Positions 11,605 to 42,231 of a DNA stretch of 42,558 nucleotides are shown here, one piece after another; positions within the stretch are counted from its first letter, which is position 1, and each line of letters begins with the position of its first letter. The translations under genes and the position numbers were made by a program. Source of the DNA: a virus (Duplodnaviria; Caudoviricetes); IMG/VR virus record IMGVR_UViG_3300030376_006202, positions 1 to 42,558 of that record; one strand, 5' to 3'. Under the pieces are notes generated by a model, which made no database searches, had not been told where the DNA came from, and was given only the letters and a program-made list of their open reading frames with translations.

Positions 11605-11874
11605 CTACTTCTTTTTACGAGTAGTCTTACGCTTTCTAGTCACAGTCTTAGCAGCTTTCTTTCTATTAGCAGCTTTGGAAACAACGCGAAGATTCTTCTT
11701 CCCGTTGGTTCCACCTTTGCTCAAAGGTTTCTTGTGGTCTACTTCCTTGCCCGGACCAGGCTTCAACTTACGATTAGCAGCATTACGTTTAGCCCGATCT
11801 TTCTTGTCTTTCTTGGGCGCATGGTCCCTTGCGTACTCTTTCTTATAATTACGCTTTGACTTCTTAGTAGGCAT
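11605..11874 (-). CDS. small basic HNH endonuclease-domain protein
   Basis: EVDHKKPLSKGGTNGKKNLRVVSKAANR is an HNH(N) motif; TAATG coupling favours start 11874. Confidence 0.85.
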   Translation of the reverse strand: MPTKKSKRNYKKEYARDHAPKKDKKDRAKRNAANRKLKPGPGKEVDHKKPLSKGGTNGKKNLRVVSKAANRKKAAKTVTRKRKTTRKKK

Positions 11875-39572: not shown

Positions 39573-40054
39573 TAAGCTTCAAACTCAAGCTGTACGACAG
39601 TGTAAGTCCCCGCAGTGGTGTCGGCCCAGGGGGCACCAGCGGCCTCTACGGCGTTATATGGGGGGGTGGTGGTGGAGTCCAGCACGTTGTCAAACTTTAA
39701 TAAGTCTGTGTACATGTTGGTTGCTCCCGCCCTGTCTCTAAAAGAAGCGTAGAAGTTTGTGTATAAGGCTTTTGATCTACTGGTCCCAAGCTCTTGGTCA
39801 TTAATATGAGTTATCACCACCGGGTGATCCCAAATGACCAAAAGGAAAGTAGGCGCTGTAAACTCCCGACTAATAGTCTCGCCAATTACGCCCTTAATAA
39901 AAGATTTAGTCTCAATGGACTTCCCCTTAACTTTAACGCCGTCAAATCGACGAATATCATTGGGTAAAGAATAGCTGGGGTTTGTCCCCGACTTGTTGCT
40001 AACAACAAGAGAAATCGCCAAACTTAAATAGTCCTGTACGTTAGATATTGCCAC
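39572..40054 (-). CDS. hypothetical protein, first gene of the late operon (160 aa)
   Basis: AGGAGG RBS before GTG; TAATG coupling to the next gene. Confidence 0.75.
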   Translation of the reverse strand: MAISNVQDYLSLAISLVVSNKSGTNPSYSLPNDIRRFDGVKVKGKSIETKSFIKGVIGETISREFTAPTFLLVIWDHPVVITHINDQELGTSRSKALYTNFYASFRDRAGATNMYTDLLKFDNVLDSTTTPPYNAVEAAGAPWADTTAGTYTVVQLEFEA

Positions 40055-40404
40055 AATGCCCTCCTAGCATAAGCCTCTCACAGGCTTCTCTATATAGCTT
40101 GTTAATATACTAATATGCCCTTGGCCCTCTAAGGGAGCCAAGGGCATTATATATATATACTTATATAGTACCCCATCCTGTGTCAACAACCAAAACGTTC
40201 ATTGCTTAAACCTAGCGGCGGTAATACTTTTCAGCGTTTATAAGCATGTAATTTCGCACTTTTTAATATTTATTAAATAATTGCCTTTCTACAGCCCTAA
40301 CCACTGCTGGCGTGTAGGAAAAAAGCACCCCCTGCAATTATGTCGGGAGACCTGTTTGGGCGTATTTAGTAGCATGTTTCTTTTAATAACCAAGGAGATT
40401 AAAG
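40055..40404. promoter_or_regulatory. divergent control region between the late (-) and early (+) arms
   Basis: Strand switch; AT-rich with TATATA tracts; 11-bp inverted repeat ATGCCCTTGGC/GCCAAGGGCAT (40115-40147). Confidence 0.6.
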
Positions 40405-40647
40405 ATGATTCAGTTTACAGCTATTAAAATGTTTAGAGAGGGGAAATGGGAAAGCATGCTAAAGGGCCATGACGGTAGTGGCACACTGATACTGGTGAAC
40501 CCCAAAGAGATCTCTAGCATCTCCGATGAGCCCCTTGCGAGTGGTGACCCTGCCTGCATCATTGCCATGACAAACGGGGACCAAATAGTGGCTGATGAGG
40601 CTGTTCATGCGGCTATTGAGGCTTTGGTGGAGTATGAGCTTTCTTAG
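40405..40647 (+). CDS. FlbD/SwrD-like small protein (80 aa)
   Basis: MIQFT...ILVNPKEISSI...IIAMTNGDQIVADE matches the FlbD pattern; AAGGAG RBS. Confidence 0.6.
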   Translation: MIQFTAIKMFREGKWESMLKGHDGSGTLILVNPKEISSISDEPLASGDPACIIAMTNGDQIVADEAVHAAIEALVEYELS

Positions 40648-40679
40648 GTTATGTATATAGGGATGTTAATAGATATATA

Positions 40680-41887
40680 GGGGGGTGTCACCTTGGGGGT
40701 GACTCCCTTACCTTCCCGTTACGCTTAAAGCAATACTTTGTATTGCTGCTCCACTAGAGGTGATTAATCCTTAAAACAATGGGTCCCTGGCCCATTGCTG
40801 GATTAACCCATTGTGCTATCTAGCTCAGGTCGAAGTTGATGGCTAATATGTCCCTAGTAGATCCAAGATACCAACCTACACATCCAGATACCAACCGCAA
40901 GCGGTCGGCTCTGCCTTGTGTGGTCGGCTCTTGTCTCTCCAGGCATAAAGCTTTGCGAACATAGTGGCACCCGCAGGAAGATCATGTACGCATTTAACCT
41001 CTTGCATTTCCCCTTACGCACACGTACACGCGCGAAGTTTTCGTCAAGGCCATTCTGCCCTTAACAATCCTTGACCAACTGGGCCAGTTGGAGGGCGTTC
41101 GCAACCTGCGGCCAGGTTGAACCCCTTCTCCGATGTACTATAGAGACCAGTTATGCCTCTCACTGGGCTCTATAGTACCAAAGCTAGATGCCCCTGCTAA
41201 CAGGGGTAACCTTCCTATGGGCCGACAAAAACAAGGGGTTGTTTTTACCGGTTTGCTTTGACTCTTAGCGCAGGAGCGCACGAGCCCGGTGACTGCCAGC
41301 GCCGGGTGCGAGAAGTGCTTGTTGTCACCTTTTATATTAGCTGATGCCAAGCCTTATTCTGATGCGGGCGTGTGCGCCCTCTACGGTGCCTATAGCACCT
41401 TAAGTTAGACGGGCCAAGGCTAACGCCTCTTGGCCTTCGATCTCTCTCTCTCTCTGTTTACTCATATTGTAGCCGAGTCACTCCGCCCGCAAGGACTCAA
41501 AATAAATGTTCGTGCGCGCGGTTCTGCTTTTGGCCTGTTAGAGAAACGGGGCCCTGCCCGTTGTATTTTTTGTCTCGACCTTCTGGCCCTCCGGGGGATG
41601 AGGCCAAAATGCTCACCGTGCTCCAAACATTTTTTTTGCCCGGTTCCCGGCAAGATTGTCTAGCATTCCCTGAGCCTATCCTCTTCCTTTGGAATTATAA
41701 AAGCGCTGTTGGTCCTAATGGGTCCCTGCCCATTAACCCTCTGGGCCTCCGGCGGGTTGCGCTCGTTTATAACTTCCAAAGCAATTCACCGCGAGCATAG
41801 GCTCAGGGAATCCTGTCAATCTAAGGACCTTGCGGTGCTCGCTTACCTCGGCTTCAATATTCTAAACAGCGCGAGAGAGCGCTACAA
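40680..41887 (+). ncRNA. candidate large structured RNA or structured control region
   Basis: 1.25 kb without a credible CDS; more than 15 hairpins plus long-range helices; strand inferred weakly from G-U pairs and flanking genes. Confidence 0.55.
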
Positions 41888-41901
41888 CCAAGGAGAACGT
41901 T

Positions 41902-42231
41902 ATGTTTAAGAGTTTAGAAGAGCAGATCATGGAAGTACTTACAGCAACCTTTAGCAAGGACGCAACCGAAGCAGCACTTGATGCCCTCTACGGTAAATAC
42001 CTGGGTGCTATGAAACAAGTTGCTATCGAACGATATCGTGGGAGCACTACCCACAACCGGGACGTCTTCGGTGCAATGGACCACGCGCACTGCCACTTCA
42101 TGGAGTGCGTGGAGTTAGTGATTCGGGACATACAAGCCCGTTGCGACTTCGTCAATTATATTTCTCAAGAAGCCAATACGGAAGAGGAGTACGACGAGTT
42201 TGTCCTCGCGATGCACGACACCCTCCACTAG
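41902..42231 (+). CDS. hypothetical early protein (109 aa)
   Basis: AAGGAG RBS; helical composition. Confidence 0.8.
   Translation: MFKSLEEQIMEVLTATFSKDATEAALDALYGKYLGAMKQVAIERYRGSTTHNRDVFGAMDHAHCHFMECVELVIRDIQARCDFVNYISQEANTEEEYDEFVLAMHDTLH

What the first reader, a model, noticed from the sequence alone, without database searches (positions are those of the whole stretch)
41444..41879. ~440-nt domain closed by a long-range imperfect helix, ending just before an early-gene RBS
Seen: the two ends pair colinearly over about 50 nt. The pairs are CTCTCTC/GAGAGAG (41444-50/41873-79), CTGTTTA/TAAACAG (41454-60/41863-69), ATATTG-T-AGCCGAG/CTCGGCT-T-CAATAT (41464-77/41847-60) and CCGCAAGG/CCTTGCGG (41487-94/41828-35). 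Two arms lie inside. One is TTTTGGCCT/AGGCCAAAA (41528-36/41601-09). The other is a long rod with a perfect 15-bp stem (41665-79/41797-811) plus an inner TTTGGAA-TTATAAA-AGCGC stem (41688-706/41759-80). The domain ends about 10 nt before the SD of gene 41902, and alternative pairings exist there (AGCGC/GCGCT local hairpin; TTGTAGC 41467 with GCTACAA 41881). Inference: this is too much nested pairing for chance and suggests a large phage ncRNA or switchable leader. I do not recognise it as a named family.
Basis: partly seen in the sequence, partly recalled or inferred. Interest (0 to 1): 0.85.

Follow-up and report, generated by a model that had tools for sequence, protein, structure and literature searches.

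The report
Two-armed orphan RNA in marine phage
An uncultured marine phage carries a 436-base stretch with no credible gene that is predicted to fold far better than chance into two long arms tipped with the same small module, likely a new accessory RNA read from the strand opposite the neighbouring gene that would act as a two-headed protein decoy, though neither its expression nor its target has been shown.

Summary
The pairings are real at the stated coordinates. The domain folds at z about -9.5 on both strands, best of 97 genome windows, and matches nothing in Rfam. Strain contigs give 8 changes in the domain: two A-U to G-C double changes (joined across contigs of two studies), two that stay paired only on the minus strand, one unpaired, one break. 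In one contig the domain differs at 4 of 238 positions against 17 of 215 in the next gene. Internal loops are 81% pyrimidine on + (109), so the structure is strand-specific, most likely a minus-strand RNA; G-U pairs in the heads argue for +. The switch idea is not supported: the domain does not pair with the Shine-Dalgarno. Relatives with 91-98% identical terminase lack it, and no homologue was found in viral, metagenome, genome, phage or plasmid searches. Verdict: a real, orphan, accessory structured RNA candidate; strand unresolved, expression and function untested, covariation thin.

The parts
41444..41879 (-). Whole structured domain (436 nt); strand given is the more likely one, not proven
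41444..41494 (.). Left arm of the interrupted closing helix (28+7 bp in five segments); carries variants at 41464, 41465, 41476, 41483
41828..41879 (.). Right arm of the closing helix; carries variants at 41848 and 41860 that restore pairing with 41476 and 41464
41498..41638 (.). Arm 1, an interrupted rod ending in head copy 1 (z -4.0/-4.1 alone)
41544..41599 (.). Head copy 1: hairpin A (41545-62, followed on + by a T-run; terminator-like) and hairpin B (41580-97)
41640..41650 (.). Small 4-bp hairpin in the central junction (P 0.84 on +, 0.52 on -)
41653..41822 (.). Arm 2, long rod with the perfect 15-bp stem; variants at 41674 (G-U only on minus) and 41808 (break on both strands)
41716..41758 (.). 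Head copy 2: hairpin A (41716-35) directly followed by hairpin B (41736-57)
40778..40795 (.). Third, isolated copy of hairpin A outside the domain
41035..41443 (.). Adjacent gene-free, hairpin-rich stretch (z about -5 on both strands), also absent from relatives; may belong to the same transcript
41890..41895 (+). Shine-Dalgarno AAGGAG of the first early-side gene; not paired with the domain
41902..42231 (+). 109-aa orphan gene (only itself found among 5.8 billion proteins); linked to the domain in a variant contig
40698..40712 (.). Family landmark motif M1, conserved in the intergenic region of related phages
41009..41032 (.). Family landmark motif M2; the variable slot that holds the domain starts behind it

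Best explanation
The stretch is predicted to fold into a closed, two-armed structure and is likely an accessory non-coding RNA read from the minus strand, which would act in trans as a two-headed decoy or scaffold that binds two copies of one (probably host) RNA-binding protein through the duplicated modules at its arm tips. Shown: the pairing potential; the duplication of the head; the one-sided loop composition; lower divergence than the next gene; the open Shine-Dalgarno; absence from close relatives. Partly shown: selection on pairing (two double changes, joined across contigs). Inferred: that it is transcribed, the strand, that the heads are the working parts, and that the ligand is a protein. 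The long interrupted helices would protect the ends and hold the heads apart; since phages with 91-98% identical terminase do without it, the job would be host- or condition-specific (host take-over or counter-defence) rather than packaging or replication.
For: Folding z -9.8/-9.5. Eight variant positions in the domain over runs X2-X7: 41464/41860 and 41476/41848 are partners and both go A-U to G-C; chance of 2 of 3 right-side changes hitting partners about 0.002-0.004 by a rough model. 41465 and 41674 leave G-U on minus but A-C on +; with all 8 changes applied the MFE loses 12.6 kcal/mol on + and 4.8 on minus. One contig has 4 of 238 differences in the domain part and 17 of 215 in the gene part (Fisher p 0.003). 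Internal-loop and bulge bases between the 131 pairs shared by both strands: 63 of 78 pyrimidine on +; opposed mismatches 8 Y-Y, 1 R-R, 1 A-C, 1 G-T of 11. A cruciform or a decayed DNA palindrome would not give this one-sidedness; A/G-rich loops are usual in structured RNA (recalled, no call), which points to minus. Purine fraction on + is 0.42, inside the range of the minus-transcribed late region (0.39-0.53, 127 windows) and outside that of the early region (0.52-0.63, 51 windows). Heads 79% identical with one double change and one C-G/U-G change between copies; no variant seen in either head. The four overlapping ORFs lack a good RBS; variants are missense or nonsense in three of them, and the single variant in the fourth is silent.
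Against: No RNA data: transcription is untested. The double changes come from two different contigs in different studies (depth 3.4-4.7), linked only by the shared change at 41674; no single contig shows both sides. The change at 41808 (X4, X5, one study) breaks the 15-bp stem on both strands. Hairpin B depends on G-U pairs on + (P 0.88 and 0.99) and hardly forms on minus (0.00 and 0.27); 41518:41619 is G-U on +; a variant at 41140, outside the domain, is also G-U on + only. G-U pairs are rare overall (8 of 161 on +, 7 of 156 on minus), low for a natural RNA (recalled). No promoter or terminator was found that brackets it on minus. No kissing-loop candidate on minus. No ligand is identified and the host is unknown. 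No diverged homologue, so no R-scape-type test.
Confidence: 0.4

Rival explanations
1. A + strand RNA (part of the early leader or a processed sRNA) whose heads present C-rich loops and the anti-Shine-Dalgarno word CCUCC, pairing with ribosome-binding sites of host mRNAs as RNAIII, RsaE or 6C RNA do.
For: All four head loops are C-rich on + and both hairpins of both heads form well on + (P 0.88-0.99); CCTCC occurs exactly twice in the domain, at homologous places 41588 and 41746; the domain lies directly before an early-side gene; RNAIII (514 nt) and RsaE use redundant C-rich loops on SD sequences (passages of PMC4152353).
Against: Two strain variants break pairs on + but not on minus; loops on + would hold only 12 A among 114 unpaired bases; a terminator-like hairpin-plus-T-run sits inside arm 1; no + promoter found in 41035-41890.
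Confidence: 0.25
2. A single-stranded DNA structure near the genome end, origin or packaging site (Frpo/ssi-like promoter or primer signal, or a protein-bound hairpin array) and not an RNA.
For: Both strands fold alike, with few G-U pairs; it lies next to conserved landmarks M1/M2, one complete relative starts at M1 and ends in a 108-nt near-copy; long hairpins before leading genes serve as ssDNA promoters in plasmids (passages of PMC13478746); hairpin A is also a palindromic DNA site in three copies.
Against: The phage is a tailed dsDNA phage (portal, terminase, capsid), with no obvious ssDNA entry stage; relatives keep M1/M2 but lack the domain (19, 25, 59); no consensus promoter in the stems (a by-eye candidate in arm 2 has only a 15-nt spacer); one-sided loops exclude a symmetric cruciform, though not ssDNA.
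Confidence: 0.15
3. A relic of a foldback or miniature mobile element, or of local duplication and inversion in a hypervariable slot, without present function.
For: Species-specific; the region is modular (one contig lacks 41288-41336, another the 40405 gene); ends are inverted repeats; arms share a duplicated unit.
Against: Single copy, no target-site duplication by eye, no transposase, TnpB or RT in the genome; mismatches are mostly Y-Y, whereas decay by transitions (6 of the 8 variants are transitions) would leave G-T and A-C; more conserved than the next gene.
Confidence: 0.1
4. One reading: a cis leader whose alternative pairings open or close the ribosome-binding site of gene 41902.
For: Ends 10 nt before the SD; the outer helix competes with a local hairpin and with a pairing of 41861-67 to the start of the coding sequence; the domain travels with this gene.
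Against: The SD is not paired with the domain in any of 5 contexts; the TTGTAGC/GCTACAA pairing has P 0.0; the four bases before the start codon are all changed in X4; no aptamer match.
Confidence: 0.08

Closest known systems
ROOL and GOLLD RNAs (large accessory phage/prophage ncRNAs; passages of PMC12286853)
   Same: Large, heavily paired, phage-encoded, function unknown, not protein-coding.
   Different: No Rfam match; no tRNA in this genome; smaller (436 nt); simple two-rod plan with a duplicated head; no pseudoknot or kissing loop evident; found in one phage species only.
RNAIII / RsaE / 6C RNA (C-rich-loop anti-SD sRNAs; passages of PMC4152353, listing of PMC6486639)
   Same: On the + reading: redundant C-rich hairpin loops in an RNA of similar size.
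   Different: Those are chromosomal regulators of Gram-positive bacteria; no sequence or model match; no targets known; strand evidence leans the other way.
CsrB/RsmZ protein-sponging RNAs
   Same: On the minus reading: repeated purine-rich loop words (AGGGA, GGAGG); the decoy mode of action proposed here.
   Different: GGA is not enriched (12 on minus, about 10 expected from composition by hand) and only one hairpin loop in the domain holds ANGGA; long rods are unlike CsrB (recalled).
Frpo / ssi single-stranded DNA promoters (passages of PMC13478746)
   Same: Long imperfect fold-back directly upstream of early genes.
   Different: They need ssDNA entry; no convincing -35/-10 in the stem; no match in 72,556 plasmid records.
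phi29 pRNA (recalled)
   Same: Non-coding RNA near a probable genome end, beside the packaging genes.
   Different: pRNA is essential and conserved among relatives; this domain is missing from phages with 91-98% identical terminase.

Membership tests
ROOL / GOLLD / OLE and other Rfam families | Match to the family covariance model | tested here: not met
   0 matches at gathering in the window; 0 at E<=10 in 41420-41900 (100); 3 sub-threshold matches in 40000-42000, none in the domain (12)
ROOL / GOLLD | Often near tRNA islands | tested here: not met
   0 tRNA/tmRNA genes
ROOL / GOLLD | Pseudoknots and kissing loops supported by covariation | tested here: inconclusive
   No >=5-bp complement among 33 unpaired segments on minus; 4 among 36 on +, none head to head; no alignment deep enough
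ROOL / GOLLD | Abundant transcript that forms multimers | not testable with these tools
   No RNA holder listed
Retron msr-msd / DRT ncRNA | Neighbouring reverse transcriptase | tested here: not met
   PF00078 six-frame search of the genome: 0 (controls rang in 3 of 14)
HEARO / omega / TnpB guide RNA | Adjacent HNH or TnpB nuclease | tested here: not met
   PF07282: 0 (111); PF01844: one sub-cut-off match at 11656-11754, far away
CsrB / RsmY / RsmZ | Many GGA motifs in hairpin loops | tested here: not met
   12 GGA, 3 ANGGA on minus; GGA-loop hairpins are common throughout these genomes
C-rich-loop anti-SD sRNAs (RNAIII, RsaE, 6C) | C-rich words in accessible hairpin loops | tested here: met
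   On + all four head loops are C-rich; holds only if + is the transcribed strand
C-rich-loop anti-SD sRNAs (RNAIII, RsaE, 6C) | Pairing with and repressing target mRNAs | not testable with these tools
   Host unknown; no long complement elsewhere in the phage genome
Frpo / ssi ssDNA promoter | -35 and -10 boxes at promoter spacing within the fold-back stem | tested here: inconclusive
   Scan finds none in the domain (10); weak by-eye candidates only
Frpo / ssi ssDNA promoter | Element enters the cell as single-stranded DNA | tested here: not met
   Portal, terminase and major capsid genes of a tailed dsDNA phage; inference from family knowledge
Packaging RNA (pRNA) | Present in all close relatives | tested here: not met
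   Absent from L001 (98% TerL) and L003 (91%), which span the same slot
MITE / foldback element | Multiple copies, target-site duplication, partner transposase | tested here: not met
   One copy; no duplication seen; no transposase among the proteins scanned
Riboswitch / translational switch | Alternative structure that occludes the SD | tested here: not met

The most novel reading that the evidence does not exclude
A new class of phage RNA weapon: a rigid two-armed RNA, built by duplicating one head, that uses avidity either to trap a dimeric host defence or regulatory protein (minus strand) or to clamp host ribosome-binding sites with paired anti-Shine-Dalgarno loops (+ strand), carried as swappable cargo in the first-entering part of the genome.
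Probability: 0.15. Interest if true: 0.8.

Novelty: new member of a known kind. Interest (0 to 1): 0.5.

Why it matters
Large structured phage RNAs of unknown function are few (ROOL, GOLLD) and were found by covariation in deep alignments. An orphan like this would be missed by such screens (the IMG/VR screen of PMC10690425 needed three matching regions and reported 29-151 nt motifs). A duplicated head on two rods gives a direct handle for a pull-down, and would show that phages swap large RNAs as accessory cargo in the early region as they swap proteins.

Tried and rejected
Homologue searches, all blank or chance: blastn against 50,697 phage records and 72,556 plasmid records; viral-contig patterns for the 15-bp stem (0 hits), the head (8 hits, none homologous), the closing helix (3 hits, none homologous) and a neighbouring hairpin (6 hits, only the pattern itself); one metagenome pattern (1 hit, L036, near-identical); one genome-collection head pattern (0); nhmmer over all loci then held (0 at E<=1); a covariance model of the head over 28 sources, 380 kb (only the window's own copies and one E 0.83 fragment) and over 5 further records (0 of 5); DNA searches of 10 related records (only 14-24-nt matches). 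Exact patterns miss diverged homologues. Protein-anchored searches with the 39572 and 41902 genes gave no usable loci; terminase found no prokaryote genome, so the host is unknown. No RNA holder was listed among 20 runs; this says nothing on expression. A 300-nt folding scan of five relatives showed no outstanding domain, but this window size is short for a 436-nt closure. Hammerhead core absent in 40641-41900. The 'local hairpin' column was indexed one base off and is replaced. Literature: 10 searches; an 18-nt head word in four spellings was in no paper; 6 supplementary files of PMC10690425 held none of six words, but files 1, 2 and 4 were not searched and could bear on novelty. I found no passage for the rule that RNA loops are A-rich; it is recalled. 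Earlier scan notes: none for this genome or sequence; four word matches from other genomes did not bear.

Full report
Setting. The window is a complete 42.6-kb virus record of a tailed phage: terminase, portal and capsid genes run on the minus strand from 40054 down, replication genes (SSB, DnaB, Cas4-like nuclease) on +. Runs that hold the DNA are marine or aquatic. No cultured relative is close (terminase about 22% identical at best coverage) and the host is unknown. The finding lies in a stretch without credible genes, 40648-41901, between an 80-aa gene and a 109-aa orphan gene.

Observation. The result does not hang on the chosen ends (core -8.2/-9.4) and the domain is the best of 97 blind windows. 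The plan is a long interrupted closing helix, a junction with a 4-bp hairpin, arm 1 (41498-41638) and arm 2 (41653-41822). New here: both arms end in the same two-hairpin head (33 identical columns, 79% mean identity; 13 pairs, 25 of 26 cells paired, one double change, which with two sequences is not significant). A third copy of hairpin A lies at 40778.

Distribution. Twenty-two terminase relatives were fetched. The intergenic region keeps two landmark motifs, M1 in 10 and M2 in 7 of the 16 sequences scanned, the window included (L008 and G002 are near-identical). Behind M2 the relatives reach the first early RBS within about 76 (L001, 98% terminase identity), 121 (L003, 91%), 368 (L008) and 327 nt (L013), against 856 nt here, and none resembles the domain (19, 25, 59, 71, 107, 108). 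All collection searches were blank or chance (see Tried and rejected). The domain is therefore accessory and, as far as exact-word searches see, limited to this phage species. That rules against an essential packaging or replication role.

Strain variation. Six runs were laid (X2, X3, X4, X6; X2, X4, X5, X7); all are contigs of low depth and none spans the domain. Eight positions in the domain vary. X2 changes 41464 and 41476 from A to G; X4 changes their exact partners 41860 and 41848 from T to C. Both contigs share the change at 41674, which suggests one haplotype, but this is inferred. A rough chance estimate is 0.002-0.004 (86). The changes at 41465 and 41674 give G-U on minus and A-C on +; 41483 is unpaired; 41808 (X4, X5) breaks the 15-bp stem on both strands. 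Seven of eight changes fall in stems and none in the heads; fast-changing stems are the pattern in bacterial rRNA (passages of PMC1904297), but numbers are too small to lean on. The X4 contig differs at 4 of 238 positions up to 41897 and 17 of 215 beyond (p 0.003). X3 matches the window where it covers.

Strand. Between shared pairs, 63 of 78 loop and bulge bases are pyrimidines on +, and 8 of 11 opposed mismatches are Y-Y (10 of 12 in the + MFE). A double-stranded cruciform has no reason for such one-sidedness, so selection acted on one strand. Minus is favoured by A/G-rich loops (59 A of 124 unpaired; the rule itself is recalled), by two variants, by purine content like the late region, and by the neighbouring 40770-41230, which folds better on minus (z -5.9 against -3.6). 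Plus is favoured by G-U-dependent hairpin B in both heads, one more G-U in arm 1, one variant outside the domain (41140) and position before an early gene. I put minus at about 55%, plus at 35%, DNA-only at 10%.

Switch. The SD (41890-95) is never paired with the domain; it is open in 4 of 5 contexts and partly paired with the coding sequence in the fifth. A cis switch is not excluded but has no support.

Mechanism. The most economical reading of two rods with identical tips, closed ends, no partner gene (no RT, TnpB or nearby HNH; 110-112) and patchy occurrence is a trans-acting, two-headed binder. On minus the heads show CAGGG and GGAGG words and would bind a protein; on + they show C-rich loops and CCUCC and would bind SD sequences. 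I commit to the first at 0.4 and give the second 0.25. CsrA in particular is a poor candidate. Everything from transcription onward is inference.

Known families and novelty. No Rfam family fits. It works like, at most, the large accessory phage RNAs ROOL and GOLLD (passages of PMC12286853) but fails their membership features. Papers seen as passages: PMC12286853, PMC13478746, PMC4152353, PMC10690425 (plus 6 of its supplementary files; files 1, 2 and 4 not searched), PMC1904297, bioRxiv 10.64898/2026.09.22.753630 (72, nothing bearing); all others only as search listings. I class it as a new member of a known kind, a large structured phage ncRNA candidate, with interest 0.5: real and unexplained, but an orphan with two cross-contig double changes, no expression data and an open strand.

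Noticed in passing
L001:1-110 (-) and L003:10-125 (-): A conserved ~100-nt intergenic motif in the early region of two relatives: conserved flanks around a variable rod with GNRA-type loops; 4 of 28 predicted pairs change on both sides; no Rfam match at gathering. Not seen whole in the window. A candidate small structured RNA.
   Followed up: partly
window 40860-40940: A rod rich in G-U pairs with a G(CUUG)C loop that forms well on the minus strand only, between landmarks M1 and M2.
   Followed up: partly
window 40698 and 41009-41032; G005 ends: Landmark motifs M1 and M2 (alternating purine-pyrimidine) are kept down to about 66% terminase identity; G005 starts at M1 and ends with a 108-nt copy with 2 differences. 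Possibly genome end, pac site or origin.
   Followed up: partly
L003:1030-1240 (-): Three palindromes with AGGA/GGGA loops in the M1-M2 interval of a relative, on the early strand; the window's hairpin A has a similar core on the opposite strand (56, 93).
   Followed up: no
window 40370-40639 and 41288-41336: Strain contigs delete the 80-aa gene (X6) or a 49-nt hairpin (X7); another X2 contig leaves the window sequence after 41421, and an X5 contig before 41710. The region is modular.
   Followed up: no
window 40170-40190 (-): TTGACA followed 17 nt later by TA, read by eye here and in L001 and L003 upstream of the first late gene; likely the late-side promoter.
   Followed up: no
window 42190-42225: The end of gene 41902 (a ...AMHDT motif) recurs in otherwise unrelated early genes of L001 and L003; possible recombination joint.
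   Followed up: no
window 11656-11754 (-): Weak HNH match (E 2e-5, under cut-off) in a 102-aa frame where early and late transcription converge.
   Followed up: no
window 40405-40647 (+): 80-aa protein with a weak FlbD-like Pfam match (E 8e-4, under cut-off).
   Followed up: no
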